Of a stretch of DNA of 64,000 nucleotides, positions 1,017-63,453 are shown piece after piece. How positions within the stretch are numbered: the first letter of the stretch is position 1; each line of letters starts with the position of its first letter. The position numbers were made by a program, and so were the translations under genes. The DNA comes from an uncultured Candidatus Saccharibacteria bacterium (lineage in GTDB: Bacteria > Patescibacteriota > Saccharimonadia > Saccharimonadales > JAGQNJ01): the NCBI GenBank assembly GCA_965231045.1, contig OZ246406.1, positions 706,208-770,207 of the forward strand, written 5' to 3'. A model generated the notes under the pieces. That model was given only the letters and a program-made list of their open reading frames with translations, ran no database searches and had not been told where the DNA came from.

Positions 1017-1041
1017 AGTGAATAGCTTAGCACTTAGGCAT

Positions 1042-1071
1042 AAAAAAATCACCCCTATTAATTCAGGGGTG
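1042..1071 (-). terminator. intrinsic terminator on the minus strand, 26 nt upstream of the valS start
   Basis: Stem CACCCCT (1050-1056) pairs with AGGGGTG (1065-1071) around an 8-nt loop. The A7 run at 1042-1048 on + gives a U-tract directly after the hairpin on the minus strand. Confidence 0.7.
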
Positions 1072-1235
1072 GTTTCACGTGAAAAAGGACAAAACTATAT
1101 CAATAACTCCTCACACAGAGTCCCTCAACAGATCTAAAACTGAAATTTTGTCTCCAAGGTTCGAGCGCTTCTAACGCCATGACACAATGTTTGTTTTCGG
1201 AGTAAGCATAACAGAGACGATAGGCATAAGCAATA

Positions 1236-1264
1236 TTGACAAACAGGGATAAAAATGCTAATAT
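1236..1264 (+). promoter_or_regulatory. near-consensus sigma-70 promoter for ORF 1288
   Basis: TTGACA (1236-1241), 17 nt, TAATAT (1259-1264), preceded by TGc (1256-1258), an extended -10. The -10 lies inside the palindrome CTAATATTAG (1258-1267). Confidence 0.65.
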
Positions 1265-1287
1265 TAGAACGTTAAATAAAAACAAAC

Positions 1288-1815
1288 ATGGTAGATAGCG
1301 ATAACCCAACCCCAGCCCCAGAAGGACATCCTGTTATGGATATTCAGGCTCTTTCACAGCTTGATGCAAAAGAAGTGGCTAACAGACTTGATTTTCAAGC
1401 CTGGGCAGGGGATAACTGGCGTGAAACAGGGGAAATTGTCACAGAAGATGATGATCCGGTTTTGTTTTATCACGGAGGAATATCTGGGATTAGCGAATTT
1501 TCAACTGAGCAAACACCTAATACCGCTCCAGACCAACAGGGTATATACTTTACGAATCGATTACAAGATGCGAACTTCTACGCCGGCAAATTAAAGATTG
1601 ATCAAATTGATAGGGGACTTCCGAAGAGCGCAAGTGTCTACGCAGTAATGCTCAAGATGAAGAACCCATATGTAACTACTAATGGGGATGGTGTTTCCTC
1701 TGAGACAATTAAGGCTGCACCAGAGGGCTATGACGGGATAATAAACACAAAATCTCAAGAAGTTGTAGTTTTTGACCCCAGCCAAGTATTTATTGCCGGC
1801 GAGGCCAAAAGGTAG
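1288..1815 (+). CDS. hypothetical protein, possible ADP-ribosyltransferase-like (H-Y-E type, ART-PolyVal-like) domain
   Basis: ORF track, 175 aa. The motif series VLFYHGG..., GIYFTN..ANFY, SVYAVMLKMKNPY and GYDGIIN..QEVVVFDPSQV resembles, from memory, ART-like domains of phage/ICE polyvalent proteins. No signal peptide or TM segment. The functional call is tentative. Confidence 0.4.
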   Translation: MVDSDNPTPAPEGHPVMDIQALSQLDAKEVANRLDFQAWAGDNWRETGEIVTEDDDPVLFYHGGISGISEFSTEQTPNTAPDQQGIYFTNRLQDANFYAGKLKIDQIDRGLPKSASVYAVMLKMKNPYVTTNGDGVSSETIKAAPEGYDGIINTKSQEVVVFDPSQVFIAGEAKR

Positions 1816-2877
1816 TTACATCGATAGGTTTGGTTCGATGTCCAGAGAGTAGGGATCGGCGGTCGGCTGGTCTTTTTTCATCTTAAAACAGGCTAGTGTG
1901 GCAATCATAGCGCCATTATCGGTGCAAAGTTTAGGGTCGGTGTAGGCAATTTCCAGAGGTAAACGCTCGGATAATTGCTTGCGGAGTTCAGGGCTAGCAG
2001 CTACACCACCAGCGATGACAACGCTTTTGGGCTTAAACTCATCAAATGCTTGAGCCGCTTTATCTACCACGGTTTCTATAGCGATTTTCTGAAAACTTGC
2101 GGCTATATCGGCTTTTTGAGGCTCTGAGAGGCGCTCTGCTATGCCATGAGAAGGGAAGCTGTGATCTTGACCAATTTGCTTCTGCGCCGCGCGCAAGACG
2201 GCTGTTTTGGGCCCAGAAAAGCTAAAATCATACTTACCGGGCACTTTGGCCTTAGGGAAGTCAAAAGCATTGGGGTTGCCATCCATAGCTTTCTTACCAA
2301 CACTTGGTCCGCCAGGGTAGGGTAGGCCAAGTATTTTGGCGACTTTATCAAAGGCTTCACCGATGGCGTCATCTTGGGTTCGACCAAGTAAGGTGTAATC
2401 AAAATGATTTCGGAACAGCACTAGTTGGGAGTGTCCACCAGATACAATCAGTGCCAACATAGGAAATTCTGGCTGGTGAGAGGGGAGGGAATAGTCAGGT
2501 AAATCAGTATCAGTTAAGAAGTTAGCATACACATGCCCCTCGACGTGGTTACACGCATACAGGGGTTTCTTGTGTAAAATTGCCAGAGTTCGGGCGGCTA
2601 AAACACCGATGAGTAAGCAGCCACCGAGGCCGGCGCCGTAAGTAACACCGATGGCGTCAATATCATCCCAAGTGCACTTCGTATCTGTTAGAGCTTGCTT
2701 AATAACAGGCTCGATAGACTCAATGTGGCTACGAGCTGCTATCTCTGGTACAACACCGCCGTATTTGGCATGAATATCCATACTGCTAGCTACCACATTA
2801 CTCAGTAATTTATGGCCATCTTCAACAACTGCAACGGCGGTCTCATCACAACTAGTCTCAATTCCTAAAATTCTCAC
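1816..2877 (-). CDS. tsaD: tRNA N6-adenosine threonylcarbamoyltransferase TsaD (Kae1/Gcp family)
   Basis: ILGIETSCDETAVAVV, NHVEGH and a GVAAS-type C-terminus. The track ORF extends to 2973, but that extension overlaps murE and is not conserved-looking. GTG at 2877 (VRILGIETS) is the likely start. Confidence 0.92.
   Translation of the reverse strand: MRILGIETSCDETAVAVVEDGHKLLSNVVASSMDIHAKYGGVVPEIAARSHIESIEPVIKQALTDTKCTWDDIDAIGVTYGAGLGGCLLIGVLAARTLAILHKKPLYACNHVEGHVYANFLTDTDLPDYSLPSHQPEFPMLALIVSGGHSQLVLFRNHFDYTLLGRTQDDAIGEAFDKVAKILGLPYPGGPSVGKKAMDGNPNAFDFPKAKVPGKYDFSFSGPKTAVLRAAQKQIGQDHSFPSHGIAERLSEPQKADIAASFQKIAIETVVDKAAQAFDEFKPKSVVIAGGVAASPELRKQLSERLPLEIAYTDPKLCTDNGAMIATLACFKMKKDQPTADPYSLDIEPNLSM
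1854..1878 (+). terminator. possible intrinsic terminator for ORF 1288, embedded in the tsaD 3' coding region
   Basis: GATCGGC (1854-1860) pairs with GCTGGTC (1866-1872), including G-U pairs, around a 5-nt loop, followed by T6 (1873-1878). Confidence 0.4.
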
Positions 2878-2886
2878 TCGAATTAC

Positions 2887-2894
2887 AGTATACT
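2887..2894. promoter_or_regulatory. palindromic -10 element AGTATACT shared by divergent tsaD and murE
   Basis: TATACT reads on + (2889-2894), then 7 nt, then the murE ATG at 2902. TATACT reads on - (2892-2887), then 9 nt, then the tsaD GTG at 2877. Confidence 0.45.
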
Positions 2895-2901
2895 TTAATT
2901 C

Positions 2902-4254
2902 ATGGGATTTAGAGGTGTCGTTAAGAAATTTGTTCCAACAAAAACTTTCAAGAAAATTGAACCAACCGGGCATTTAGTCGAGGCGGTTATTACTAATGCC
3001 ATCAGTGGCTTCCCTGTGAAGGGTCTAAAAGTTATTGGTGTAACAGGTACAAATGGTAAGACGACGACTAGTTACATCATCCATCGCATGTTACACGAAG
3101 CCGGTTATAAAGTGGCGCTGATGACGACTGTTTCATACGGGATCGGAAATGATATAAAACCGCAGTTTGAGCATGCTACAACCCCTGGCGGAATGAAGCT
3201 GGTAAACAAGTTCAAGGAGTTTAAGAAGGCTGGTGTAGAGTGGGTAGTGCTGGAAACGACTAGCCACGCGCTGGCACAACACCGGGTTTGGGGTGTGCCG
3301 TACTCGGTTGCTGTATTTACGAATCTAACACACGAACATCTTGATTATCACGGCACTTTTGAACATTATCGAGACGCTAAAAGAATGATGTTTCAGATGT
3401 GTAATGCTAACAAAAAAGGCCTGCAAACAGGGCTGGTTAACGCCGATGATCCAAACGCCAAGTATTTTGTGGCCGATGTCAAAAACCCAATTACTTATGG
3501 CATGAAGGACGGTGATCTTAAAGCGCGAAGTGTGCGTTTAACACCTACGGGCAGCCGTTATATCGTCAAAGCCGGTGATGAAGAATATCACATTCACTGT
3601 CGCTTGCCGGGCAGTTTTAATGTCTACAATTCACTTGCTGCAGTAGGAGTTGGGCGAGCCATAGGATTATCTGTTGAACAGATTCAAAACGGTATTGAAG
3701 CCCTAGAGGGTGTTGAGGGTCGTATGACTCAGATAGATGAAGGGCAAGACTTTGCTGTGATTGTTGATTATGCTCACACACCAGATAGTTTCGAGAAGTT
3801 ATTTAAGGATCTAAAACCAGTGGTTGAGGGCAAATTGATTGTGATGTTTGGTTCAGCCGGACGACGAGATGAAGAAAAGCGTGCCACTCAAGGTGAACTT
3901 GCTGGTAAATACGCTGATGAAGTAATTGTTACAGAGGAAGATGATCGTGATATGGATGGCGAAGCCATCATGGATCAGATAGCGGCTGGCGCCGAAAAAG
4001 CTGGCAAGGTTAGAAATAAAGATCTGTTCTTAGTACATGATAGAAGCGAGGCCATCATGACCGCCGTTAACCGAGCCAAAAAAGGCGACACAGTATTGTT
4101 ACTTGGCAAGGGCCACGAGAAGGATATCTTACGAAATGGGCCAAGGGCAGCTGAACTCCGACATTTACAGCAGGACGATCATAACCCAGATAGGGTGCGT
4201 GAATTCCCATGGGACGAAGTTAGTACGGCTCATCAGGCGCTCAAAAATCGCTAG
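2902..4254 (+). CDS. murE: Mur ligase, MurE-like (UDP-MurNAc-L-Ala-D-Glu:diamino acid ligase)
   Basis: GVTGTNGKTTT P-loop, DYAHTPDS and FGSAGRRDEEKR. The position of the mDAP-specific DNPR motif reads EDDRD, so the amino-acid specificity is unclear. Confidence 0.85.
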   Translation: MGFRGVVKKFVPTKTFKKIEPTGHLVEAVITNAISGFPVKGLKVIGVTGTNGKTTTSYIIHRMLHEAGYKVALMTTVSYGIGNDIKPQFEHATTPGGMKLVNKFKEFKKAGVEWVVLETTSHALAQHRVWGVPYSVAVFTNLTHEHLDYHGTFEHYRDAKRMMFQMCNANKKGLQTGLVNADDPNAKYFVADVKNPITYGMKDGDLKARSVRLTPTGSRYIVKAGDEEYHIHCRLPGSFNVYNSLAAVGVGRAIGLSVEQIQNGIEALEGVEGRMTQIDEGQDFAVIVDYAHTPDSFEKLFKDLKPVVEGKLIVMFGSAGRRDEEKRATQGELAGKYADEVIVTEEDDRDMDGEAIMDQIAAGAEKAGKVRNKDLFLVHDRSEAIMTAVNRAKKGDTVLLLGKGHEKDILRNGPRAAELRHLQQDDHNPDRVREFPWDEVSTAHQALKNR

Positions 4255-4289
4255 GCAAAAAGTAATGACTAATAAACTATAATCAAATC

Positions 4290-5648
4290 ATGGATCCTAT
4301 AGCTGAGCATCATAACCAAGGTCCTGGCGTATCAGAAATACTACGTATTACCATTGGCCAAGAAGCGGATTATTATTTACAGCTTATGCGAGAACTTGAA
4401 CCTGACCGTTTTGCGGTTATTAAGGTTGGGGGTGAAGCAATTGAACAAGAACTAGACTCGTTAACGAGTGATATCGCAGTGCTTGCCAACCTAGGACTGT
4501 ATCCAGTTATCATTCATGGTGGCAACCCACAGATCAATGCCGACTTGCAGGCTAGAGGCATTGAAACCAAAAAGCACAACGGAATACGTATTACAGATGA
4601 AGATACGCTTAGGAGCGTAGAAACTGGGTTAGGCCAAGCAAACCAGGCCTTGGTTGAAGCTTTGGCCGAAAAAGGAGTTCAAGCTACCAGTGTGGTCGGG
4701 GGGGTTTTTTCCGCTGGCTACAAGGATAAAGAAGCATTGGGATTTGTCGGCGAAGTCGAACAGGTCAATACCGAGGCCATTCGACAAGCCATTCGCGAGA
4801 AGAAGATCCCAATTGTAAGTTGTATTGGTCAAGATGAAACTGGTCAACCGCTTAATATTAACGGTGATACTGCCGCCCAAGCCTTAGGTGCAACAATGCA
4901 GCCATCCAAATTTATTATGCTAACCAGCACACCAGGAGTTTTGGGGCGCGATGGGCAATTACTTAACGTTATAAATGATACTCAAGAAGTAAAAAAACTT
5001 ATCGATGATGGCACAATCAGCGAAGGTATGATTCCCAAAGTCGAAGCCGGCATGAAAGTTTTGCATAAATTACCGGCCGAATCATCAGTTGTTATCACTG
5101 ATCCTGCCCAATTAATGAAGGAGTTGTTTACTCATCAAGGTGGCGGGACTTTGCTGCGGCACGGCGATGCCATCACTCACTTGCCTTCAATTAGCGCAGT
5201 TGACCAAGATGCTGTCAGATCGCTGATAGAAACTGCCTTTAACAAACGTTTAGTCGATGACTATTTTGATACATTACCGGAAGATACAGAAGTTTTCATA
5301 ACTGATCGAGGCTATCGTGGCATAGCAATTGTTATCCCGGGCAAGGAAGGGGAGCCGGCCTATCTTGATAAGTTGGTTGTACGCCCAGAAGAAGCGGGAC
5401 ATGGTATAGGTGACGAAATAGTTGATAAAGTTTTGCAAGAACACCCTGAAGGTGTCTTTTGGCGGGTCCGCAAAAACAACAAGAGTTTGCCATGGTATCG
5501 TAGCCGTGGCCGTGGCCAAGAATATGACTGGAGCGATGACGAGTGGATTATTTTCTTCACTAGAGAAGTTAAGCCAGATGATAGAGCACAGTTTGCCGCC
5601 CAAGCTGTATTACGGGCTGAGACAGTTTTGCCTTTTGGGACAAAGTAA
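4290..5648 (+). CDS. amino-acid kinase (acetylglutamate kinase-like) fused to a C-terminal GNAT domain: NAGS/K-like (ArgA/B-type)
   Basis: AVIKVGGEAIE, VIIHGGNPQIN, NINGDTAAQAL and MIPKVEAG place it in the AAK family. The C-terminal ~150 aa carry LVVRPEEAGHGIGDEI, a GNAT motif-A-like sequence. Confidence 0.75.
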   Translation: MDPIAEHHNQGPGVSEILRITIGQEADYYLQLMRELEPDRFAVIKVGGEAIEQELDSLTSDIAVLANLGLYPVIIHGGNPQINADLQARGIETKKHNGIRITDEDTLRSVETGLGQANQALVEALAEKGVQATSVVGGVFSAGYKDKEALGFVGEVEQVNTEAIRQAIREKKIPIVSCIGQDETGQPLNINGDTAAQALGATMQPSKFIMLTSTPGVLGRDGQLLNVINDTQEVKKLIDDGTISEGMIPKVEAGMKVLHKLPAESSVVITDPAQLMKELFTHQGGGTLLRHGDAITHLPSISAVDQDAVRSLIETAFNKRLVDDYFDTLPEDTEVFITDRGYRGIAIVIPGKEGEPAYLDKLVVRPEEAGHGIGDEIVDKVLQEHPEGVFWRVRKNNKSLPWYRSRGRGQEYDWSDDEWIIFFTREVKPDDRAQFAAQAVLRAETVLPFGTK

Positions 5649-5817: not shown

Positions 5818-5846
5818 TTGATTATTGTTATGCTTTATTGTATAAT
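5818..5846 (+). promoter_or_regulatory. promoter of leaderless ORF 5854
   Basis: TTGATT (5818-5823), 17 nt, TATAAT (5841-5846). The ATG at 5854 is 7 nt downstream and there is no SD. Confidence 0.6.
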
Positions 5847-5853
5847 ATACACC

Positions 5854-6363
5854 ATGTCGTTAGGAAGTTTTGAGACACGAGTATTAGAGATAGTAAGCCC
5901 TATTGCCGATAAGATGCCGCTATATCATCCTGATGCGGCTGATATCAACGAAGCCTTAGATTATGGGGTTGCTAGTTGTGCGGTGCGGGCTTATGCGGCT
6001 GGTTTACTACTTCGTGATGCCTATCCTAATGAGGGCTTATATACAATTAACTTTGGCTTTTCACCCGAGCATGGTGGTGTTTATAAAGGCAAAAATGGAA
6101 ATTACGTTAGAATGGGTCACGCTGTGACCAGATTTTGGGTTCCTGAACAAAGACCGTTAATTGTTGAGTCCTACAACGACTCAAGAATGGAAGTTACAAC
6201 CGAGGAAGATGCCCATGAAGATTTTCTTTGGCGGGAGCTTGATGAAGGCTATAAGGAATATCTAGAACGAGCTGATCTTGATGATATTCTTGTTGATCCT
6301 CAAGAAGTCCTTTGCTTTCTAAAAGGCGAAGTGTTTCAACCAGAAACTACTGCGACCAACTAA
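5854..6363 (+). CDS. hypothetical protein, possible transglutaminase-like Cys-His-Asp peptidase fold
   Basis: Track ORF 5818-6363. I chose ATG 5854 (MSLGSF) because of the promoter position. The GVASCAVRAYAAGLLLR ... GHAVTRFWVP ... ESYND spacing resembles a transglutaminase-core C/H/D triad. Weak call. Confidence 0.35.
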   Translation: MSLGSFETRVLEIVSPIADKMPLYHPDAADINEALDYGVASCAVRAYAAGLLLRDAYPNEGLYTINFGFSPEHGGVYKGKNGNYVRMGHAVTRFWVPEQRPLIVESYNDSRMEVTTEEDAHEDFLWRELDEGYKEYLERADLDDILVDPQEVLCFLKGEVFQPETTATN

Positions 6364-7352: not shown

Positions 7353-7368
7353 TTAACTCTTGTAATAT
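7340..7368 (+). promoter_or_regulatory. groESL promoter
   Basis: TTGCAA (7340-7345), 17 nt, TAATAT (7363-7368). A strong SD, AGAGGAGG, sits 5 nt before the ATG at 7393. Confidence 0.6.
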
Positions 7369-7392
7369 TAAGTCACTAAAGAGGAGGAAATA

Positions 7393-7659
7393 ATGCCCAC
7401 ACCGTTAAATCCATTAGCAGACAATGTCGTTGCCATGGCTGAAGAAGTTTCAAACAAGACAGCCAGCGGTATTTATTTGCCTGATAATGCAACAGAAAAA
7501 CCTAAAACTGCCAAAGTTGTGGCGGTTGGCCCAAGCGTCAGCCAAGTTAAAGTTGGCGATAAGATTATCTACAAAAGCTTCAGTACAACTGAGGTAAAAG
7601 TGAACAAAGAAGAATACATAATTGTTAAGGAAGAAGACGTCCTCGCGACAGTCAAATAG
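7393..7659 (+). CDS. groES: co-chaperonin GroES
   Basis: 88 aa with the typical Cpn10 sequence (GIYLPDNATEKPKTAKVVAVG), directly upstream of groEL. Confidence 0.97.
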   Translation: MPTPLNPLADNVVAMAEEVSNKTASGIYLPDNATEKPKTAKVVAVGPSVSQVKVGDKIIYKSFSTTEVKVNKEEYIIVKEEDVLATVK

Positions 7660-10502: not shown

Positions 10503-10589
10503 CCGCTCCCCCTAAGCATTAGCACAATATATTCGATTGAAACTATAGCACAAATGCTCACGCTCGATAAGGGTCAATGATATTATTGG

Positions 10590-11105
10590 ATGATGGAGAG
10601 AACATATTGCCACAATTGCGGGAGTAAATTAGACAAACAAGAAGATTATATTTGGCGTTGCGATAGTTGCGAACAAACTTATTATGCCAATCCAAAACCA
10701 TGCGTAGAGCTGGCAATTTTTAACGATAAGGGTGAAGTATTATTAGCCGAAAGAGCTCACGAACCTTGGAAAGGTAAGTACGACATGCCGGGTGGTTTTA
10801 TTGATATTGGTGAAAGAGCTGAAGCGGCCGTGTTACGCGAACTCAAAGAAGAGCTTGATCTAGATGCAGACGCGGTTACAAAGCCCAAGTTCTTAAGAAC
10901 TTATCTAGGTGATTATGTGTGGGGTAAGGAAACTTACAAAAACATCATTTTACTTTTTGTCTCACGCTTAAAATCCGATCGAGAAATATTGGCTCAAGAT
11001 GATGTCGCCAGTACTAAGTGGATCTCACCCGATGATATCAATCGTGAAGACTTATCATTACAGGAGCTTTATGACTACATTCAAGAAGCGCGTGCTGCTC
11101 TCTAA
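10590..11105 (+). CDS. Nudix hydrolase with N-terminal zinc ribbon (NudC-like architecture)
   Basis: CHNCGSKL...CDSCEQ zinc ribbon. Nudix box GGFIDIGERAEAAVLRELKEELDL. The canonical NudC SQPWPFP motif is not seen. The second ATG (10593) sits 6 nt after TGaTATTAT. Confidence 0.85.
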   Translation: MMERTYCHNCGSKLDKQEDYIWRCDSCEQTYYANPKPCVELAIFNDKGEVLLAERAHEPWKGKYDMPGGFIDIGERAEAAVLRELKEELDLDADAVTKPKFLRTYLGDYVWGKETYKNIILLFVSRLKSDREILAQDDVASTKWISPDDINREDLSLQELYDYIQEARAAL

Positions 11106-14108: not shown

Positions 14109-14733
14109 TCTTAAGTCTCCTGGTGATGAAAATGAGGCGATAGATTGCTGTGCACCAGCTAAGAATGCCAATAACAACCATTGCAAGTGGTAGGCGATCA
14201 CTAAGAAGGGCTATAAAAATTATAAACATTCTAACTTCAAACCTCAGTAAGCCACCACGAAATGTTTTGTTAACCTTATGACTTGGGTTACTTTGACTCA
14301 TTGCTACATCACCCTGGGCGTTAAGGTAGCTTGTGAGCATTGACCCCCCCAGTGCAACAATTGCCCAAACCGTAAACCATGAAAGATTTTGCGAAATTAG
14401 ATAATAGACAATTCCACCGTAGAGAAAAACTTCTTTCATTCGATCGGTTGCCGAATCCAAAAACATTCCAATACTACTGGTGCGCTTTTGAAGCCGTGCC
14501 AGTTCGCCGTCAAGGGTATCGAATAAGCCGAAAATTACTAATAATATGGCCGCCAAAGGCAATTTACCAACGGCAATAAAGTAGGCAATAGGCAAGTGGG
14601 CAAGCAAACCTACGATTGTCACCACATTTGGCGAAAGTTTGCCGCCACTTAGGGCGTTAAGTGCACGAGCAAATACTCTCATAATTGCCCGCACCCCATC
14701 CCGGACTTTGTCCAGTACTTGGTTCATGCTCAT
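14101..14733 (-). CDS. CDP-alcohol phosphatidyltransferase, PIP-synthase/AIP-synthase-like subfamily
   Basis: FDTLDGELARLQKRTSSIGMFLDSATDRMKE matches D-x2-DG-x2-AR-x8-G-x3-D-x3-D. KLSPNVVTIVG and SYLNAQ...GGLLRFEVRMFII resemble mycobacterial PgsA1 (PIPS) more than PgsA. The start is ATG 14733 or 14727, the latter 6 nt after TATACT. Confidence 0.88.
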   Translation of the reverse strand: MSMNQVLDKVRDGVRAIMRVFARALNALSGGKLSPNVVTIVGLLAHLPIAYFIAVGKLPLAAILLVIFGLFDTLDGELARLQKRTSSIGMFLDSATDRMKEVFLYGGIVYYLISQNLSWFTVWAIVALGGSMLTSYLNAQGDVAMSQSNPSHKVNKTFRGGLLRFEVRMFIIFIALLSDRLPLAMVVIGILSWCTAIYRLIFITRRLKNV

Positions 14734-14768
14734 AGTATACAGGAGTTTATAGAGGTATAATAACCTTA

Positions 14769-15449: not shown

Positions 15450-15471
15450 TTCTGCTATACTTACATCTGTT

Positions 15472-47663: not shown

Positions 47664-47683
47664 TCTTGATATAATGCCTTGCC

Positions 47684-48367: not shown

Positions 48368-48408
48368 TAAAACAAGTATAATTGTATCAATAATTATTGA
48401 GGTTATTG

Positions 48409-48717: not shown

Positions 48718-48746
48718 TTGCTCAACAGGGATAAGTGTGATAGAAT
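48718..48746 (+). promoter_or_regulatory. rpsO promoter
   Basis: TTGCTC (48718-48723), 17 nt, TGaTAGAAT (-10 at 48741-48746). The ATG at 48756 is 9 nt downstream. Confidence 0.55.
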
Positions 48747-48755
48747 TGGTACCTA

Positions 48756-54280: not shown

Positions 54281-54309
54281 TTGACAAGTGATGTAAAAAT
54301 TGCTATAAT
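54281..54309 (+). promoter_or_regulatory. consensus promoter of leaderless ORF 54316
   Basis: TTGACA (54281-54286), 17 nt, TGcTATAAT (-10 at 54304-54309). The ATG is 6 nt downstream. Confidence 0.65.
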
Positions 54310-54315
54310 ATTGTT

Positions 54316-54570
54316 ATGTCTCCAAAGAAAAGTCCAACAATTGAAGAACTCCGTGAAGCCTATGAGTCTGCTCGTGAAAGATGTGATATCTTTTTTGAAC
54401 AAGCCGAAAAGCCACTTGGCCCTGAAGATTCCGCTGAGCATCAATGGCTAAAAAATCTCACATTAGATGCTTTAGCAAAATTCTATGACGCTGGTGGCAA
54501 GCTTGGCCCTGTTGAGCCCCCAGACGAGCCCATAGGAATGTCTGTTGCAACAGATGACAAGATGATATAA
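54316..54570 (+). CDS. small acidic hypothetical protein
   Basis: 84-aa ORF placed exactly at the predicted TSS of a consensus promoter. Confidence 0.55.
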   Translation: MSPKKSPTIEELREAYESARERCDIFFEQAEKPLGPEDSAEHQWLKNLTLDALAKFYDAGGKLGPVEPPDEPIGMSVATDDKMI

Positions 54571-56800: not shown

Positions 56801-56847
56801 CACATTATAGTTATGCTATAATTTCTTCTATACCATTTGGGGGAATT

Positions 56848-58419
56848 ATGGTGTTTAGTCACCAATTAAATAGAAAACAGAGAAGATTTAATAAGTCGAC
56901 TTTACGATACCGCTTATTATTGATTTTCCAAGCCCTTTTCTTGGTACCGCTTTTGGTTGTGATGACTCCGATGTCGGCGAAAGCCTATACTTCTACATAT
57001 GCTCCGTCATTTGTAACAAAATGGGGCACAGCAGGTAGTGGAAATAGTCAGTTTTCATACCCGACAGATGCAGCTATTGATAGCTCAGGCAATGTTTACG
57101 TTGTAGATGTGGATAATAATCGAGTAACCAAGTTTACTAGCGCCGGTACATACATAACTAAATGGGGATCTTTTGGATCGGGTAACAGCCAATTTTATTC
57201 GCCTCAGGGCATTGCTATAGATAATAGCGACAATGTTTACGTTGTTGATACATTTAACTATCGTATACAGAAGTTTGACTCCAACGGTAACTATTTAACA
57301 CAGTGGGGTAGTTTCGGATCTGCAGATGGACAGTTCGGTGCTATTTTAGGCGTAGATGTAGATACTAGTGGTAATGTATTTGTCACTGATGATGGCAACA
57401 ATCGTGTATCAGAATTTACCAACACAGGAACTTTCATAAGGAAATGGGGTAGTACTGGTGCGGGGAACGGGCAGTTTAACTTCCCGTGGGGTGTAGTAAC
57501 TGACTCCAGTGGCAACGTTTATGTTAGCGATGCATCTAACAATAATGTCCAGAAGTTTAATTCTACAGGTATCTATGTTGCGACCATTGGCTCTAGTGGT
57601 TCTGGAAATGGCCAGCTTACTTATCCGGAGATGATTGCAATTGACAGTATTGGTAATCTTTACGTTACGGATGTTAGTAATAGTCGTATTGCAAAGTTTG
57701 ATACTAGCGGTAACTTTTTAGTTAATTGGGGTAGTGCAGGCACGGGTAATGGGCAATTCTCTGGCGATATGGGTATAGCAGCAAATAGTTCAGGTGATGT
57801 CTATGTAACGGATACTAATAATACTCGAGTACAGAAATTTAGCTATCCTGCAGTATCAAATACATTCACAAATCAGCCGATAAGTGGCGCTTCGGCAAAC
57901 ATCACTCTTGATACGCCTTGGTACACAGCTATTACTTGTGCTAATGCAGTTACCGAGGCTAGTCTTACCACCCAAGACAGCGGCAAGGCGTACCCACTTG
58001 GTCTAGTTAATTTTTGCCTAACAGTTCCAAGCGGTTCATCTATTCCTGTATCACTAACATTTGTTACCGATCTGACTACGAGTCAAGTTACAGCCCGTAA
58101 GTATAACTCTAATACTCATACATACAGTGATATTGCTGGCGCAACAATTACAGACACTACGGTCAGTGGTCAACATGCCTTAAAGCTTAGTTACACAGTT
58201 ACTGATGGTGGGTCGCTAGACATGGATGGTACGGCTAACGGTGCAATTGTTGATCCTGTTGGGTTAGCGATTGCCGACACATCCAGTGCAACATCTGCAC
58301 TGGCTTCAACAGGAGACAATACTCAGCTAATTTTTGTGGCTGCTGGGGTATTTTTGGCTACAGGCATTTCGATAGGGTTAATAAGTAGAAAAACACGACT
58401 GACAACAATATCTAGATGA
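56848..58419 (+). CDS. cell-surface NHL-repeat beta-propeller protein with LASTG sorting signal
   Basis: Signal peptide. Six repeats of the form G.GNGQF..P.G.A.DSSGNVYV.D..NNR.QKF. A DGGSLDMDGTANGAIVDPVG module. The C-terminus is LASTG (58300-58314), then a TM segment, then RKTR... Confidence 0.8.
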   Translation: MVFSHQLNRKQRRFNKSTLRYRLLLIFQALFLVPLLVVMTPMSAKAYTSTYAPSFVTKWGTAGSGNSQFSYPTDAAIDSSGNVYVVDVDNNRVTKFTSAGTYITKWGSFGSGNSQFYSPQGIAIDNSDNVYVVDTFNYRIQKFDSNGNYLTQWGSFGSADGQFGAILGVDVDTSGNVFVTDDGNNRVSEFTNTGTFIRKWGSTGAGNGQFNFPWGVVTDSSGNVYVSDASNNNVQKFNSTGIYVATIGSSGSGNGQLTYPEMIAIDSIGNLYVTDVSNSRIAKFDTSGNFLVNWGSAGTGNGQFSGDMGIAANSSGDVYVTDTNNTRVQKFSYPAVSNTFTNQPISGASANITLDTPWYTAITCANAVTEASLTTQDSGKAYPLGLVNFCLTVPSGSSIPVSLTFVTDLTTSQVTARKYNSNTHTYSDIAGATITDTTVSGQHALKLSYTVTDGGSLDMDGTANGAIVDPVGLAIADTSSATSALASTGDNTQLIFVAAGVFLATGISIGLISRKTRLTTISR

Positions 58420-61080: not shown

Positions 61081-61380
61081 ATGAGTGCACTTGCTGTAGA
61101 TTTTCAGAAGTGGGATGAAGAACCTGATATATGTCCAGTAAGTGTTATTTACACCCAAGAGGGTTGGCAAATTGATCAACTACCCATGAATTATCAAAAT
61201 ATTCTTGGTTCAAGTCGTATTGATAGGAAAGCATATCTTGATCGGTGCCCTGAGTTGGAACATCTGATCCTTGAGCTTGGTGAGAGGGCTGCCACACATT
61301 TAATTGTTGATACGGCAATGTTTAAAACGGAGTATGAATTAATGCAATCAGATGGATGGTGGGGTTCTTATGAAGACTAG
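61081..61380 (+). CDS. hypothetical protein
   Basis: ATG 61081, 1 nt after the efp stop. 99 aa, acidic and Trp-rich. Confidence 0.5.
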   Translation: MSALAVDFQKWDEEPDICPVSVIYTQEGWQIDQLPMNYQNILGSSRIDRKAYLDRCPELEHLILELGERAATHLIVDTAMFKTEYELMQSDGWWGSYED

Positions 61381-62086
61381 ACTTGATCAATCTTTAGTGG
61401 AGCGAGGGCTCGTAGTAACCAGATCTCAAGCTGAAAGCTTTATCAAGATCGGTGAAGTTAAAGTTAATGGTGAAATTATCACTAAGCCTGGCTATTTTGT
61501 GAACGAAGATGCCATGCTGGAGTTAACTGCTATAGACAAATATGTTTCACGGGCCGGTCTAAAATTGGCCTCAATTGCCGAAACGTTCAAACTTGATTTT
61601 ACAAACAAAATTGTTTTGGATGTTGGTTCATCGACCGGCGGTTTTACGGATTTTGCTCTGCAGCACGGTGCTCAAAAAGTTATCGCCGTTGATGTCGGCA
61701 CTGATCAATTACACCCAAGCCTGCACGATAATCCTAAAATTGAATTACACGAGCAAACCGATATTAGAGACATGCACGAACTTGCTGGTAAACCAGACAT
61801 TGTAGTTATGGACGTATCTTTTATATCTCTAAGAGAAATCCTCCCGCACGTCTCGAAATTGTCAGGTCCCCAGACTCAAATTATCGCTATGTTAAAGCCT
61901 CAGTTTGAGGTCGGTAGCAACAAGAAACACAAGGGTGTTATTAAGAATGATCGAATGCGTCGTGATATCCTGAGAGATTTTGAGGACTGGAGCAGAACAC
62001 TTTTTGTAATCAAAAATAAGGCTGATAGCCAAGTTGCTGGTAGCAAAGGTAATGTTGAACGATTTTACTTGCTCCAAAACCTCTGA
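61370..62086 (+). CDS. tlyA: TlyA family rRNA (cytidine-2'-O)-methyltransferase
   Basis: S4 domain RLDQSLVERGLVVTRSQAESFIKIGEVKVNG. SAM motif LDVGSSTGGFTDFALQHGA. Confidence 0.88.
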   Translation: MKTRLDQSLVERGLVVTRSQAESFIKIGEVKVNGEIITKPGYFVNEDAMLELTAIDKYVSRAGLKLASIAETFKLDFTNKIVLDVGSSTGGFTDFALQHGAQKVIAVDVGTDQLHPSLHDNPKIELHEQTDIRDMHELAGKPDIVVMDVSFISLREILPHVSKLSGPQTQIIAMLKPQFEVGSNKKHKGVIKNDRMRRDILRDFEDWSRTLFVIKNKADSQVAGSKGNVERFYLLQNL

Positions 62087-62106
62087 TTATCTGTTAGACT
62101 CTAGAT

Positions 62107-62760
62107 ATGTATTTTAAAAACCGTTCTCAGGCAGGCCAGCAGCTTGCAGCAAAACTTGCACATTATCGTTTTGAGAACACCGCGGTTGTAGCGTTGTCGG
62201 ATGGTGCTGTAGTTGTGGCGGCCGAAATTGCCACGCAACTTCACTGTGTATTGACGATGCTTTTAACCGAAGAAGTTACACTACCTGGTGAAAAGGACCC
62301 AGTGGCAGTGGTGAACCAGGATGGTGGATTTACCTACAACAATATGTTTTCGGCGGGACAGCTTGAGGAGTATACCAGCGAATATCATAGCTATATAGAG
62401 CAAGAAAAGCGCCAAAAGTTCCATGCCATTAATAAGTTGCTAGGCGAAGGAGGGTTGATACGGCCTGATCTTCTTTATGGACACAATGTTATTTTAGTGT
62501 CAGATGGTCTTAACTCTGGGTTGTCACTTGATGCGGCGGCCGACTTCCTAAAGCCGATTAGAATCGATCGGCTGATTGTAGCCACACCATTTGCCAGTGT
62601 ACCAGCAGTGGATCGTATGCACCTTTTGGCTGATGAAATCGTTTGTTTGAGTGTTATTGAAAACTACATGAATACTGATCATTATTACGAAGACAATAAA
62701 ATGCCTAGTCACGAAGATATTGTTAAAACAATCGAAAAAATTGTTTTTAATTGGAAATAG
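62107..62760 (+). CDS. predicted phosphoribosyltransferase-like protein (COG1926-type)
   Basis: N-terminal FKNRSQAGQQLAAKL and VVALSDGAVVVAAEIA. The PRPP-loop-like motif VILVSDGLNSG reads where VDDG.ATG is more typical. Confidence 0.65.
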   Translation: MYFKNRSQAGQQLAAKLAHYRFENTAVVALSDGAVVVAAEIATQLHCVLTMLLTEEVTLPGEKDPVAVVNQDGGFTYNNMFSAGQLEEYTSEYHSYIEQEKRQKFHAINKLLGEGGLIRPDLLYGHNVILVSDGLNSGLSLDAAADFLKPIRIDRLIVATPFASVPAVDRMHLLADEIVCLSVIENYMNTDHYYEDNKMPSHEDIVKTIEKIVFNWK

Positions 62761-63414
62761 TTACTTAAAGTAATCCCAAAGTTTTTCGACGTCATTAAGC
62801 TTTATACTAGATCGGCTAGTAGTTACTAACCCTTTGTGTTCGAGTCGTGAAATTTCACGCCCAGCAGTTTCTCGAGAAGCATTAATCGAACTTGCGACGT
62901 CTTGCTGTCTTAGTGGTACGTCTATGACAATACTGCCATCAGGTTGCTTTTGACCGAAACGCTTAGACATTGTTAATAAGAACGAGACTAAACGTTCACG
63001 CACGGTTCGATACTCTAGGTTTATTATTCTCTCACTATGCATTCGATACATTTCGATTGTCATATCCAGCAAGGGAGGTAATAGCTCAGGGCGCTTTGTC
63101 AGATTGTTAATGTAGGTCTCTTGATCGATGCGCCAAACATGGAGTGTAGATAGGGCTTCGTAAATAACTGTCGGACCTTCACTGATTATTGGTCGAATTA
63201 GGGGGAATATTTCGCCCGGGCGCCTAATGATAAGTAAGTTTTCTTCACCGTATTTTGTAATGTCGTAAGCCTTAACTAGCCCTGACTCTATAAAAAAAAC
63301 CGCCGTAGGTTTTTCGCCCGGGCGGATTATTAGTTCTCCTTTTTTGTATGTTAGCTTTGTTCCACGGTGGAACAAGTCCACCAGTGCATCTACTTGTTCT
63401 TTAGTAGCCAACAT
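62761..63414 (-). CDS. Crp/Fnr family transcriptional regulator
   Basis: cNMP-binding beta-barrel (FFIESGLVKAY...LIIRRPGEIFP) and C-terminal HTH (QQDVASSINASRETAGREISRLEHKGLV). I chose ATG 63414, 6 nt after TGtCATAAT. Confidence 0.88.
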   Translation of the reverse strand: MLATKEQVDALVDLFHRGTKLTYKKGELIIRPGEKPTAVFFIESGLVKAYDITKYGEENLLIIRRPGEIFPLIRPIISEGPTVIYEALSTLHVWRIDQETYINNLTKRPELLPPLLDMTIEMYRMHSERIINLEYRTVRERLVSFLLTMSKRFGQKQPDGSIVIDVPLRQQDVASSINASRETAGREISRLEHKGLVTTSRSSIKLNDVEKLWDYFK

Positions 63415-63453
63415 AGATATATTATGACACAACTTGCTTCTAAAGACCAATCC

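What the first reader, a model, noticed from the sequence alone, without database searches (positions are those of the whole stretch)
1017..63426. Pervasive leaderless-type promoter/start architecture (-10 box 5-10 nt before the start codon, mostly 6-8) alongside a classical SD gene set
I inspected the sequence upstream of each first-in-unit gene. In 27 cases a TAnnnT-type -10 hexamer ends 5-10 nt (mostly 6-8) before the start codon and no purine-rich SD is present. The hexamer is frequently TGn-extended, with the recurring form TTATGCTATAAT.

Cases, listed as gene: hexamer coordinates, spacer length in nt.
- valS: 1029-1024 minus, 7
- tsaD: 2892-2887 minus, 9
- murE: 2889-2894, 7
- NAGS/K-like: 4278-4283, 6
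- ORF 5854: 5841-5846, 7
- Nudix at 10593: 10581-10586, 6
- CDP-alcohol transferase at 14727: 14739-14734 minus, 6
- DUF1361: 14756-14761, 7
- argS: 15456-15461, 10
- orn: 20992-20997, 8
- ORF 22637: 22650-22645 minus, 7
- dnaG at 22745: 22732-22737, 7
- P-type ATPase: 29110-29105 minus, 8
- second sigma factor: 29981-29986, 5
- polA: 31335-31340, 7
- AKR: 35418-35423, 6
- HAD at 38737: 38725-38730, 6
- ORF 39645: 39633-39638, 6
- folP at 40983: 40995-40990 minus, 6
- HAD at 41048: 41036-41041, 6
- ORF 41848: 41860-41855 minus, 6
- mutM: 42309-42314, 6
- truB: 47670-47675, 8
- rpsO: 48741-48746, 9
- ORF 54316: 54304-54309, 6
- PRT-like: 62095-62100, 6
- crp: 63426-63421 minus, 6

Several of these also have good -35 boxes at 17 nt: 5818, 22709, 39610, 48718 and 54281.

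A second set carries GGAGG-type SDs 5-10 nt upstream: groES, groEL, 9430, 10502, pgi/pmi, 18561, mscL, rpoD, 29191, 34030, 41979, rpsT, rpsF, ssb, rpsR, 59874, efp and 63559. Internal operon genes use ATGA or 8-nt overlaps.

This two-regime initiation pattern also resolves many ambiguous start codons in the ORF track. I do not know whether it has been described for this lineage.
Basis: seen in the sequence. Interest (0 to 1): 0.62.

Follow-up and report, generated by a model that had tools for sequence, protein, structure and literature searches.

The report
Leaderless gene starts in a Saccharibacteria genome
In this ultrasmall (Saccharibacteria/TM7) bacterium, about a third of genes have a promoter -10 box only 6-8 bases before the ATG, so their mRNAs very probably start at the start codon with no ribosome-binding leader; the mechanism is known from other bacteria but I found no description of it for this lineage.

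Summary
Three hexamers are not strictly TAnnnT.

In a test that uses no gene calls, strict -10 hexamers are followed by an ORF-opening ATG at spacer 6 thirteen times. The mean for spacers outside 5-10 is about 1.5. Dinucleotide-preserving shuffles do not reproduce the peak.

The window is Candidatus Saccharibacteria (TM7, CPR/Patescibacteria). The same peak appears in 20 Saccharibacteria genome loci and in 80 metagenomic relatives. It is absent from about 50 non-CPR loci.

Orthologues keep the box-to-ATG distance while the flanking sequence diverges. For mutM, whose start is fixed as Met-Pro-Glu-Leu-Pro-Glu, 67 of 74 relatives have the box, mostly at 6-7 nt.

Three features mark the box as a sigma-70 promoter with the A of ATG as +1, not an RNA-level signal:
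- TGn extension in 41-44% of cases against 7-8% background.
- T-12/A-11/T-7 numbering relative to the A of ATG.
- A pyrimidine at -1 in 82% of spacer-6 cases.

SD-led genes carry their -10 box 22-32 nt upstream instead.

No transcription start sites were mapped, so "leaderless" remains an inference. I rate it a new member of a known kind, of moderate interest.

The parts
1014..1032 (-). valS: TGc-TAAGCT, 7 nt, ATG (1016)
   Evidence: valS start anchored by NCBIfam valS profile position 2 at residue 4
2875..2892 (-). tsaD: TATACT, 9 nt, GTG (2877). Shares the palindrome AGTATACT (2887-2894) with murE.
   Evidence: the N-terminus reads MRILGI and the Pfam TsaD domain starts at residue 23
2889..2904 (+). 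murE: TATACT, 7 nt, ATG (2902). Divergent from tsaD; the two start codons are 24 bp apart.
4278..4292 (+). acetylglutamate kinase/NAT-domain gene: TATAAT, 6 nt, ATG (4290)
5818..5856 (+). ORF5854: TTGATT, 17 nt, TATAAT, 7 nt, ATG (5854)
10578..10595 (+). Nudix: TGa-TATTAT, 6 nt, ATG (10593)
14725..14739 (-). CDP-alcohol phosphatidyltransferase: TATACT, 6 nt, ATG (14727)
14756..14771 (+). DUF1361: TATAAT, 7 nt, ATG (14769). Divergent partner of 14727; the start codons are 41 bp apart.
15453..15474 (+). argS: TGc-TATACT, 10 nt, ATG (15472). Possibly a 2-4 nt leader.
   Evidence: 6 of 7 orthologues have a -10 box at 6-10 nt
20992..21008 (+). orn: TATAAT, 8 nt, ATG (21006). The box overlaps the upstream stop codon.
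   Evidence: 10 of 13 orthologues have the box
22635..22653 (-). ORF22637: TGc-TTAAAT, 7 nt, ATG (22637). The hexamer is not TAnnnT.
22709..22747 (+). dnaG: TTGCTT, 17 nt, GATACT, 7 nt, ATG (22745). Weak hexamer.
   Evidence: 16 of 20 orthologues have a -10 box at 6-10 nt before the only in-frame ATG
29094..29110 (-). P-type ATPase: TATAAT, 8 nt, ATG (29096)
29981..29994 (+). Second sigma-70 paralogue: TATAAT, 5 nt, ATG (29992). The box overlaps the upstream stop codon.
31335..31350 (+). polA: TATACT, 7 nt, ATG (31348)
   Evidence: orthologues 10 of 14 and 20 of 24; the box tracks the ATG although N-terminal length varies
35418..35432 (+). Aldo/keto reductase: TAAAAT, 6 nt, ATG (35430)
   Evidence: 3 of the 4 relatives found are SD-led
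38725..38739 (+). HAD hydrolase: TAGAAT, 6 nt, ATG (38737)
39610..39647 (+). ORF39645: TTGAAA, 17 nt, TGc-TAAAAT, 6 nt, ATG (39645)
40981..40995 (-). folP: TATACT, 6 nt, ATG (40983)
   Evidence: Pterin_bind profile position 2 at residue 7
41012..41050 (+). HAD hydrolase: TTGAGT, 18 nt, TACAAT, 6 nt, ATG (41048). Divergent from folP.
   Evidence: 16 of 24 orthologues, 14 of them at spacer 6
41846..41884 (-). ORF41848: TTAAAA, 18 nt, TATAAT, 6 nt, ATG (41848)
   Evidence: 15 of 21 orthologues
42306..42323 (+). mutM: TGt-TACAAT, 6 nt, ATG (42321). The protein starts MPELPE.
   Evidence: 67 of 74 distinct relatives have a -10 box at 6-10 nt, 33 of them at 6 nt
47667..47686 (+). truB: TGa-TATAAT, 8 nt, ATG (47684)
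   Evidence: 24 of 30 orthologues
48718..48758 (+). rpsO: TTGCTC, 17 nt, TGa-TAGAAT, 9 nt, ATG (48756)
   Evidence: 23 of 29 orthologues, modal spacer 9
54281..54318 (+). ORF54316: perfect TTGACA, 17 nt, TGc-TATAAT, 6 nt, ATG (54316). The cleanest test case.
62092..62109 (+). Phosphoribosyltransferase-like gene: TGt-TAGACT, 6 nt, ATG (62107)
63412..63429 (-). crp-family regulator: TGt-CATAAT, 6 nt, ATG (63414). The hexamer is not TAnnnT.
7363..7395 (+). Contrast class, groES: TAATAT at 24 nt, AGGAGG at 5 nt, ATG (7393)
18527..18563 (+). Contrast class, DUF1761 gene: TATAAT at 28 nt, AGGAGG at 6 nt, ATG (18561)
48354..48411 (+). Contrast class, rpsT: perfect TTGACA-17-TATAAT with the -10 box at 26 nt, GAGGT at 5 nt, ATG (48409)
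56812..56850 (+). Contrast class: TATGCTATAAT with the -10 box at 25 nt, GGGGA, ATG (56848)

Best explanation
The window comes from a Candidatus Saccharibacteria (TM7; CPR/Patescibacteria) genome that uses two ways of starting gene expression.

First regime. For about 27 of roughly 74 genes, the housekeeping sigma-70 holoenzyme recognises a -10 element (TAnnnT). The element is often TGn-extended and usually lacks a usable -35. It ends 6-7 nt (range 5-10) before the ATG. Transcription then begins at, or within 1-3 nt of, the A of the ATG. The mRNA has no 5' leader and no Shine-Dalgarno sequence. It must therefore be translated by direct recognition of the 5'-terminal AUG by a ribosome loaded with initiator tRNA.

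These genes include most first cistrons: valS, tsaD, murE, argS, orn, dnaG, polA, mutM, truB, folP, rpsO, crp and others.

Second regime. This set uses canonical GGAGG-type SD sites. It includes groES/EL, rpsT, rpsF-ssb-rpsR, efp, rpoD and operon-internal genes. When such a gene is first in its unit, its -10 box sits 22-32 nt upstream, which gives a leader of roughly 15-25 nt.

Shown here: the sequence architecture, its statistical excess, its lineage-wide conservation and its promoter-type marks.
Inferred: the position of the transcription start and the leaderless mode of translation.
For: 1. Position-specific excess without gene calls.
- Window: spacer 6 = 13, against a mean of 1.5 at spacers outside 5-10.
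- 20 Saccharibacteria genome loci (359 kb): spacer 6 = 66, spacer 7 = 35, against about 10.
- 80 metagenomic relatives (826 kb, GC 0.50): 111, 81, 58, 58 at spacers 6-9, against about 15.
- Pooled over 1.25 Mb: an excess of 371 ATG starts at spacers 5-10, roughly 30% of genes if there is about one gene per kb (my rough estimate).

2. Not a composition effect. Dinucleotide shuffles give 5.2 +/- 2.2 against 17 observed in the window, and 25.8 +/- 4.8 against 75 observed in the loci. Non-CPR loci of similar GC show no peak.

3. Phylogenetic footprint with independently fixed start codons.
- mutM (Met-Pro-Glu-Leu-Pro-Glu): 67 of 74, with only 4 SD-like.
- dnaG 16/20, polA 10/14, orn 10/13, argS 6/7. 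That is 42 of 54 against a 14.9% background, binomial p about 1e-24, and nearly always before the only in-frame ATG.
- truB 24/30, rpsO 23/29, polA 20/24.
- polA N-termini vary by 2-9 codons, yet TATACT stays 6 nt from the ATG.
- Controls: pnp 1/28; dnaG in non-CPR loci 6/47, with SD-like motifs in 21/47.

4. Promoter marks.
- TGn precedes the box in 64 of 146 cases (44%) against 7.7% of other hexamers, and in 11 of 27 in the window.
- An unaligned first-ATG profile of non-SD genes gives T-15, T-12, A-11, T-7 relative to the A of ATG.
- The base at -1 is a pyrimidine in 82% of spacer-6 cases, against 59% of SD-coupled starts and 45% of all ATGs. At spacer 7, A at -1 rises to 29%. This is the Y-1/R+1 start-site preference of bacterial RNA polymerase (established knowledge).

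5. The same -10 motif lies 22-32 nt upstream of SD-led first genes. It is therefore this organism's promoter motif, used at two discrete distances.

6. Divergent pairs leave no room for leaders. The tsaD and murE start codons are 24 bp apart around the palindrome AGTATACT, which reads TATACT on both strands. The starts at 14727 and 14769 are 41 bp apart.

7. Orthologues that lack the box often have an SD instead: L013 dnaG AAGGAG; L019 polA and orn; L014 orn.

8. RpoD with regions 1.1-4 is encoded in the window.
Against: - No TSS, 5'-end or N-terminal protein data exist for this organism. None of the papers I could read reports them for Saccharibacteria in a usable form.
- The spacer distribution has a tail at 8-10 nt. 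A share of these mRNAs may therefore carry 1-4 nt leaders. rpsO keeps spacer 9 across relatives.
- Three window hexamers are poor (TTAAAT, GATACT, CATAAT) and valS TAAGCT matches only 3/6.
- -35 elements are mostly absent. A generic two-hexamer promoter scan is not enriched: 39 found against 44 expected.
- Fourteen of the 27 genes follow a same-strand gene by fewer than about 50 nt, with no room for a terminator. Read-through transcripts in which these ATGs are internal must also exist.
- The ATG-only coupling does not separate the two classes, because strong-SD starts also show no visible GTG/TTG excess.
Confidence: 0.8

Rival explanations
1. The boxes are real promoters, but many transcripts start 1-4 nt upstream of the ATG. 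These would be very short, SD-less leaders rather than strictly leaderless mRNAs, especially at spacers 8-10.
For: Spacers 8, 9 and 10 also carry an excess: 58, 58 and 36 against about 15. rpsO orthologues have a modal spacer of 9. At spacer 7 the base at -1 is A in 29% of cases, which fits initiation one base before the ATG.
Against: The mode is spacer 6-7. That places the A of ATG exactly at the canonical +1/+2. Transcripts with leaders of 5 nt or fewer are conventionally counted as leaderless and are translated the same way. This is a refinement of the main explanation, not an alternative.
Confidence: 0.1
2. The TAnnnT element acts at the RNA level as an A/U-rich, non-SD ribosome-binding or unstructuring signal, like the non-SD motif of Bacteroidetes (GeneMarkS-2 group B). 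The transcripts would start further upstream.
For: The element is A/T-rich and sits where an RBS would sit. Many of the genes lie less than 50 nt downstream of a same-strand gene, so they are probably also present on read-through transcripts.
Against: - The conserved positions are T1, A2 and T6 plus TG two bases upstream. That is the sigma-70 signature, not general A/U richness.
- A pyrimidine at -1 in 82% of cases is a transcription-start feature.
- The motif is absent before operon-internal and SD-led genes, such as pnp at 1/28, whereas a group-B motif precedes all genes (PMC6028130).
- The same motif occurs 22-32 nt upstream of SD-led genes.
- Divergent pairs 24-41 bp apart contain no other promoter candidate.
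Confidence: 0.04
3. The promoters are real but minor. The tandem genes are mainly translated from polycistronic read-through transcripts by termination-reinitiation or 70S scanning across the short gaps.
For: Gaps of 6-49 nt with no terminator-like structure precede 14 of the 27 genes. Some orthologues are clearly operon-internal with an SD (L019 polA and orn).
Against: - The box is just as conserved for divergent genes that cannot receive read-through (tsaD/murE, 14727/14769, folP/HAD41048, ORF22637/dnaG).
- Conservation of the box at a fixed 6-7 nt in 67 of 74 mutM relatives with unrelated upstream contexts implies selection on the promoter itself.
- Reinitiation would not need TGnTAnnnT.
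Confidence: 0.05
4. Chance or annotation artefact: A/T-rich intergenic DNA plus start codons picked to fit the pattern.
For: TAnnnT is a loose pattern, with 2,300 copies in the window.
Against: Gene-call-free tests, shuffles, first-possible-start subsets, domain-anchored starts, orthologue conservation and negative controls all reject it.
Confidence: 0.01

Closest known systems
Bacterial leaderless genes of Actinobacteria (Mycobacterium tuberculosis, M. smegmatis); GeneMarkS-2 'group C' genomes
   Same: A Pribnow box lies 6-8 nt before the start codon of first cistrons, with no SD. An SD-led class coexists in the same genome, and 25-50% of transcripts are predicted to be leaderless (PMC6028130; PMC3898074 and PMC4633059 listed).
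   Different: The lineage is different: Saccharibacteria/CPR, with GC of 42-50% rather than high GC. The promoters are frequently TGn-extended. Starts are almost exclusively ATG here, whereas GTG is common in mycobacteria (my recollection). No TSS data exist here. I could not see the GeneMarkS-2 supplement, so I do not know whether any Saccharibacteria genome was already assigned to group C.
Deinococcus deserti leaderless transcriptome
   Same: There, 47-60% of mRNAs start at or next to the start codon (PMC4007540 abstract). The organism belongs to GeneMarkS-2 group C, in which the Pribnow box lies about 10 nt from the start.
   Different: That case was shown experimentally by dRNA-seq and proteogenomics. 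This one is inferred from sequence only.
Archaeal leaderless genes (GeneMarkS-2 group D)
   Same: First cistrons lack a 5' UTR and an SD, while internal genes use an SD.
   Different: The archaeal promoter is a TATA box about 26 nt upstream of the start. Here a bacterial -10 box is at 6-7 nt.
Non-SD ribosome-binding motif of Bacteroidetes/FCB (GeneMarkS-2 group B)
   Same: An A/T-rich motif lies close to the start codon and there is no SD.
   Different: The group-B motif precedes all genes, including operon-internal ones, and lies in leadered mRNAs. Here the motif is confined to a subset, excludes SD-led and internal genes, and has sigma-70 -10/TGn features.
Extended -10 (TGn / TRTGn) promoters of Gram-positive bacteria
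   Same: TG one base upstream of the hexamer occurs in 41-44% of cases. There are T/A preferences further upstream (T at -5, A at -4, T at -3, G at -2 relative to the hexamer). The -35 is weak or absent.
   Different: In the classical cases these promoters drive leadered mRNAs. Here they abut the start codon.
SD-scarce CPR lineages lacking the 16S anti-SD core (Absconditabacteria, Campbellbacteria, Wolfebacteria, Peregrinibacteria)
   Same: These are CPR lineages in which SD pairing is not the main initiation signal (PMC10783764).
   Different: Those lineages are reported to have lost CCUCC. This genome keeps a clear GGAGG-type SD gene set. No Saccharibacteria name occurs in that paper's table of organisms lacking the anti-SD. 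That paper does not describe promoter-adjacent starts.

Membership tests
Bacterial leaderless gene architecture (GeneMarkS-2 group C type) | A -10 (Pribnow) box localised about 6-8 nt upstream of the start codon of first cistrons, in excess over chance | tested here: met
Bacterial leaderless gene architecture (GeneMarkS-2 group C type) | No Shine-Dalgarno sequence upstream of those genes | tested here: met
   for the window; 4 of 74 mutM relatives have an SD-like 4-mer
Bacterial leaderless gene architecture (GeneMarkS-2 group C type) | A coexisting SD-led class for internal and other genes | tested here: met
Bacterial leaderless gene architecture (GeneMarkS-2 group C type) | The primary transcription start coincides with the start codon (5' UTR of 0-5 nt) | not testable with these tools
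   No 5'-end data are available. Indirect support comes from canonical -12..-7 numbering and Y-1/R+1.
Bacterial leaderless gene architecture (GeneMarkS-2 group C type) | The 5'-terminal AUG mRNA is translated (N-terminus confirmed) | not testable with these tools
   Start codons are supported only by domain alignment and N-terminal conservation.
Bacterial leaderless gene architecture (GeneMarkS-2 group C type) | The start codon of the leaderless class is AUG (or GUG) | tested here: met
   26 ATG and 1 GTG in the window. The excess is ATG-only in 1.25 Mb. This is not discriminating, because strong-SD starts are also ATG-dominated.
Non-SD RBS genomes (GeneMarkS-2 group B) | The same non-SD motif lies upstream of all genes, including operon-internal ones | tested here: not met
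   Internal and SD-led genes lack it (pnp 1/28). Overlap-coupled genes have no box.
Extended -10 sigma-70 promoters | TG at positions -15/-14, one base upstream of the -10 hexamer | tested here: met
   11 of 27 in the window. 64 of 146 against 7.7% background in the loci. It applies to a subset (about 40%), not to all.
Extended -10 sigma-70 promoters | A housekeeping sigma factor with region 3 (TG recognition) and region 2 (-10 recognition) | tested here: met
   RpoD at 24498-25616 has Pfam regions 1.1, 1.2, 2, 3 and 4. The individual contact residues were not examined.
SD-scarce organisms lacking the anti-SD | 16S rRNA 3' end without CCUCC | not testable with these tools
   There is no rRNA in the window. 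The strong GGAGG sites argue that the anti-SD is intact.

The most novel reading that the evidence does not exclude
Promoter-abutted, leaderless AUG starts are the default way of expressing first cistrons throughout Saccharibacteria, and perhaps more widely in Patescibacteria/CPR. They would outnumber strong-SD starts by about 3:1. Promoters would be embedded in the last codons of the upstream gene, and orthologues would flip between the leaderless and SD modes. That would make leaderless initiation part of the streamlined gene-expression apparatus of this ribosome-reduced radiation, rather than a peculiarity of Actinobacteria and Deinococcus.
Probability: 0.4. Interest if true: 0.65.

Novelty: new member of a known kind. 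Interest (0 to 1): 0.5.

Why it matters
1. Gene-start annotation of the thousands of Saccharibacteria/CPR metagenome-assembled genomes depends on the initiation model. A finder tuned to SD sites will misplace starts for about a third of genes.

2. Saccharibacteria have only recently become genetically tractable. Knowing that TGnTAnnnT followed by 6 nt and an ATG is a native, self-contained expression unit gives a compact design rule for constructs. ORF54316 is a perfect consensus example.

3. It extends pervasive leaderless expression to a deep, ribosome-reduced bacterial radiation. That bears on whether leaderless initiation is ancestral or repeatedly selected in streamlined genomes.

4. It predicts a mosaic of very short transcription units with promoters inside upstream coding ends. 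This matters for interpreting CPR transcriptomes.

Tried and rejected
- Composition or chance: rejected by dinucleotide shuffles and shifted-spacer controls and by non-CPR loci.
- Circular start choice: rejected. 18 of 27 starts are the first possible start, and the gene-call-free tests agree.
- Generic two-hexamer promoter scan of 35001-55000: uninformative. It found 39 sites against 44.2 +/- 6.8 expected, because most of these promoters lack a -35. It did flag the perfect sites at 54281, 48354 and 37792.
- 'TTATGCTATAAT recurring form': 4 hits against 2.6 expected in the window, so not significant.
- Start-codon usage as a discriminator: ATG-only coupling is seen for the -10 class but equally for strong-SD starts. 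I do not use it as evidence.
- Suspected valS-to-leuS misnaming, from a Pfam LeuRS editing-domain hit: rejected by NCBIfam valS equivalogs.
- Rfam at gathering thresholds and tRNA scans of the window found nothing, so no rRNA 3' end is available for an anti-SD check.
- Literature: eight full-text searches and several paper look-ups found no description of leaderless genes in Saccharibacteria/CPR.
  - The TM7x transcriptome preprint contains no TSS, promoter or UTR analysis.
  - A 2025 NAR paper uses 188 RNA-seq-inferred TM7x TSS and notes only an unusually variable -10-to-TSS distance.
  - The supplements of that paper and of the GeneMarkS-2 paper are not held.
- Whether the trait extends to other CPR classes: only 8 loci (110 kb) were available. 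They give spacer 6 = 9 against about 1.8, and dnaG there mostly lacks both an SD and a clear box. This is suggestive only.

Full report
**What the window is**

The 64-kb window has GC of about 0.42-0.45 and is densely packed with genes. It contains no tRNA gene and no Rfam family at gathering thresholds. A scan of species-representative genomes with its RpoD returned Candidatus Saccharibacteria MAGs as the best relatives, at 67-86% identity. More distant hits were other Patescibacteria and Firmicutes. The window is therefore from a Saccharibacterium (TM7; CPR/Patescibacteria).

**Checking the observation**

- Twenty-four hexamers are TAnnnT. ORF22637 (TTAAAT), dnaG (GATACT) and crp (CATAAT) deviate.
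- Spacers are 5 (1 case), 6 (12), 7 (7), 8 (3), 9 (2) and 10 (1).
- None has an SD core within 3-12 nt, apart from a marginal GAGGT overlapping the DUF1361 box.
- The gene names hold up. Pfam and NCBIfam confirm valS, tsaD, murE, an ArgB/NAT-domain protein, Nudix, CDP-alcohol transferase, DUF1361, argS, orn, dnaG, a P-type ATPase, a second sigma-70, polA, AKR, two HADs, folP, mutM, truB, rpsO, a PRT and a Crp-family protein.

The start codons are not an artefact of choice.
- Eighteen of the 27 are the first possible start of their ORF.
- In the others, domain models begin at residues 1-13.
- mutM begins MPELPE. This is the canonical Fpg N-terminus, whose Pro2 is the catalytic nucleophile (established knowledge), so that start is certain.

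**Is it more than chance?**

I used a test that needs no gene calls.
- I took every strict -10 hexamer on both strands: TATAAT with at most one mismatch and T1, A2 and T6 fixed.
- I asked how often an ATG that opens an ORF of at least 70 codons follows at each spacer.
- In the window (387 hexamers) the counts are 13, 5, 3 and 4 at spacers 6-9. The mean for spacers outside 5-10 is 1.5.

- TAnnnT occurs at spacer 6-8 in 17 of 51.
- In 300 dinucleotide-preserving shuffles the figure is 5.2 +/- 2.2, with a maximum of 12.
- In 252 such ORFs from related loci it is 75, against 25.8 +/- 4.8.

**Is it a property of the lineage?**

The same test was run on four further sets.
- 20 Saccharibacteria genome loci around rpoD (359 kb): 66 and 35 at spacers 6 and 7, against about 10.
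- 80 metagenomic loci found with MutM, an independent region and an independent collection (826 kb, GC 0.50): 111, 81, 58, 58 and 36 at spacers 6-10, against about 15.
- 52 non-CPR loci, mostly Firmicutes (790 kb): no peak.
- Pooled over 1.25 Mb: an excess of 371 ATG starts at spacers 5-10. Taking about one gene per kb (my rough estimate), that is roughly 30% of genes even with this strict box definition. Strong SD 5-mers account for an excess of 133.

**Orthologue evidence**

I located orthologues by tblastn with the N-terminal 100-130 residues. I took the in-frame ATG nearest the aligned N-terminus, which was nearly always the only one after the upstream stop.

A -10-like hexamer (A2, T6, at least 4/6) lies 5-10 nt upstream in these fractions:

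| Gene | Orthologues with the box |
|---|---|
| dnaG | 16/20 |
| polA | 10/14 |
| orn | 10/13 |
| argS | 6/7 |
| truB | 24/30 |
| rpsO | 23/29 |
| polA (second set) | 20/24 |
| HAD41048 | 16/24 |
| ORF41848 | 15/21 |

- The background is 14.9% over all ATGs. For the first four genes together (42/54) the binomial p is about 1e-24.
- For mutM, 67 of 74 distinct relatives carry the box. Thirty-three have it at 6 nt and 16 at 7 nt, 26 have TGn, and only 4 have an SD-like 4-mer. The rest of the upstream sequence is not conserved.
- polA N-termini differ by 2-9 codons, yet TATACT stays 6 nt from whichever ATG is used. The box-to-ATG distance is therefore what is conserved.
- Controls behave as expected. 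pnp, which is SD-led, scores 1/28. dnaG in non-CPR loci scores 6/47 with the box and 21/47 with an SD.
- Where an orthologue lacks the box it often has an SD, or is fused into an operon (L013 dnaG; L019 polA and orn; L014 orn). This looks like switching between two interchangeable modes.

**Promoter or RNA-level signal?**

Four results point to a sigma-70 promoter with the A of ATG as +1.
1. TG lies one base upstream of the box in 44% of start-coupled boxes, against 7.7% of other boxes, and in 11 of 27 in the window. There is a T/A/T/G trend at -5 to -2 of the hexamer, resembling the Gram-positive TRTGn extended -10. The -35 is weak: TTG at 17 nt in 8% against 3%.
2. Non-SD genes were aligned on the first ATG, with no motif search. 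The profile reads T-15, T-12, A-11 and T-7, which is the textbook numbering of the -10 element relative to +1. Non-CPR loci show nothing.
3. At spacer 6 the base at -1 is a pyrimidine in 82% of cases (156 of 190), against 59% for SD-coupled starts and 45% for all ATGs. At spacer 7 the base at -1, which is the seventh base after the box, is A in 29% against 8%. This matches the Y-1/R+1 preference for start-site selection seven to eight bases after the -10 box (established knowledge).
4. SD-led first genes carry the same motif 22-32 nt upstream:
   - groES at 24 nt
   - the 9430 gene at 22 nt
   - the 11148 gene at 31 nt, with TGn
   - the 18561 gene at 28 nt
   - mscL at 23 nt
   - the 34030 gene at 32 nt, with TGn
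   - rpsT at 26 nt, within a perfect TTGACA-17-TATAAT
   - the 56848 gene at 25 nt, as TATGCTATAAT

The organism therefore uses one promoter motif at two discrete distances.

Geometry adds a further argument. The tsaD and murE start codons are 24 bp apart. Between them lies the palindrome AGTATACT, which reads TATACT on both strands. The starts at 14727 and 14769 are 41 bp apart, with one box each.

**How it most likely works**

RNA polymerase with the housekeeping RpoD binds an extended -10 promoter and initiates at the A of the ATG. RpoD is encoded at 24498-25616 with regions 1.1-4. The 5'-pppAUG mRNA is then translated without SD pairing, as described for leaderless mRNAs of Actinobacteria, Deinococcus and phage lambda cI.

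In the window about 27 of roughly 74 genes are of this type. About 30 have an SD, a few are overlap-coupled without a signal, and about 9 are unclear (my tabulation).

Leaderless genes here are mostly housekeeping enzymes of modest expected expression:
- aminoacyl-tRNA synthetases
- DNA replication and repair genes
- cell-wall and tRNA-modification genes

SD genes include chaperonins, ribosomal proteins S20/S6/S18, SSB, EF-P and RpoD. This functional partition is my inference and was not tested.

The architecture, statistics, conservation and promoter marks are shown. The TSS position and the translation mode are inferred.

**Limits**

- There are no 5'-end data.
- The 8-10 nt tail of the spacer distribution, and the conserved spacer of 9 for rpsO, suggest that some transcripts have 1-4 nt leaders.
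- Fourteen of the 27 genes follow a same-strand gene by 6-49 nt with no terminator. Read-through transcripts must therefore coexist with the leaderless ones.
- The ATG-only coupling does not discriminate, because strong-SD starts are also ATG-dominated in these data.

**Comparison with what is known**

The pattern meets every sequence-level criterion of GeneMarkS-2 'group C': a Pribnow box 6-8 nt from the start, no SD, and a coexisting SD class. That group is reported mainly for Actinobacteria (90%) and Deinococcus-Thermus (97%), and rarely for Proteobacteria and Firmicutes (PMC6028130). It fails the group-B criterion, which requires the motif before all genes.

Some CPR lineages have been reported as SD-scarce because they lack the anti-SD core (PMC10783764). 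Saccharibacteria names do not occur in that paper's list, and this genome has clear GGAGG sites.

Full-text searches found no paper describing leaderless genes in Saccharibacteria or CPR.
- The TM7x transcriptome preprint has no TSS or promoter analysis.
- A 2025 promoter survey used 188 RNA-seq-inferred TM7x TSS. It remarked only on a variable -10-to-TSS distance.
- I could not see the GeneMarkS-2 supplementary tables. A silent prior assignment of TM7 genomes to group C therefore cannot be excluded.

**Verdict**

It is a new member of a known kind: bacterial leaderless architecture, here lineage-wide in Saccharibacteria. It has practical consequences for CPR gene-start annotation and construct design, and moderate evolutionary interest. 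Interest 0.5.

Noticed in passing
window 2878-2901: The 24 bp between the divergent tsaD (GTG 2877, minus) and murE (ATG 2902, plus) start codons form a near-perfect 22-bp palindrome, GAATTAcAGTATACTtTAATTC. Its centre serves as the -10 box in both directions. It could also be an operator for a dimeric regulator.
   Followed up: partly
window 37792-37820: A perfect TTGACA-17-TATAAT promoter overlaps the ATG at 37809 of a 296-aa ORF with no family match. Its -10 box ends 1 nt before an out-of-frame ATG (37822) and 42 nt before the next in-frame ATG (37863, no SD). The true start and the role of this promoter are unresolved.
   Followed up: partly
window 54584 (ftsK), 1288 (ART-PolyVal protein), 45753 (DHH-domain protein): A possible third class: no SD, with a -10 box at an intermediate distance. 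ftsK has TGaTATAAT 14 nt before its ATG. The 1288 gene has TGcTAATAT 23 nt upstream, followed by an A-rich leader. The 45753 gene has an A-rich leader, and only 13 of 39 of its relatives have a box at 5-10 nt.
   Followed up: partly
window 48741-48758 and rpsO orthologues in L082-L160: rpsO keeps its TGn-extended -10 box at a modal 9 nt from the ATG in 29 relatives, against a genome-wide mode of 6 nt. This suggests a conserved 2-3 nt leader or an unusually long discriminator for this gene.
   Followed up: partly
L013, L014, L019 (dnaG, orn, polA orthologues): Orthologues of leaderless-type genes in some Saccharibacteria have lost the -10 box. They carry an SD (AAGGAG, GGAGG) or overlap the upstream stop instead. 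Genes therefore switch between the two initiation modes over evolutionary time.
   Followed up: partly
L020, L022, L028, L030, L036, L039, L052, L061 (loci labelled as other CPR/Patescibacteria): These loci also show an excess of ATG starts 6 nt after strict -10 boxes: 9 against about 1.8. L028, at GC 0.64, has 3 at spacer 6 and 2 at spacer 8 from only 13 hexamers. Their dnaG genes mostly lack an SD. This hints that the trait extends beyond Saccharibacteria.
   Followed up: partly
window 29992-31308: A second group-1/2-like sigma-70 paralogue (best NCBIfam matches are SigB/RpoD-type, all below the curated cut-offs). It has an N-terminal extension of about 130 residues and only a weak region 3. 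It is itself leaderless-type, and its -10 box overlaps the stop codon of the upstream ORF.
   Followed up: no
window 1288-1815: A 175-aa protein with an ART-PolyVal ADP-ribosyltransferase domain. The Pfam family name refers to polyvalent proteins, which as I recall are typical of phages and conjugative elements. It sits next to valS and tsaD in a reduced genome.
   Followed up: no
window 4290-5648: An acetylglutamate kinase fused to a NAT (N-acetylglutamate synthase-type) domain. It is below the NCBIfam cut-offs for the full-length models but above the cut-off for the argB domain. An arginine-pathway enzyme is unexpected in a lineage known for minimal biosynthesis.
   Followed up: no
window 59422-59646: A 74-aa ORF with no family match lies between ssb and rpsR and is preceded by AAGGA. 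rpsR itself is 59662-59865, with a GTG start and AGGAG at 7 nt.
   Followed up: partly
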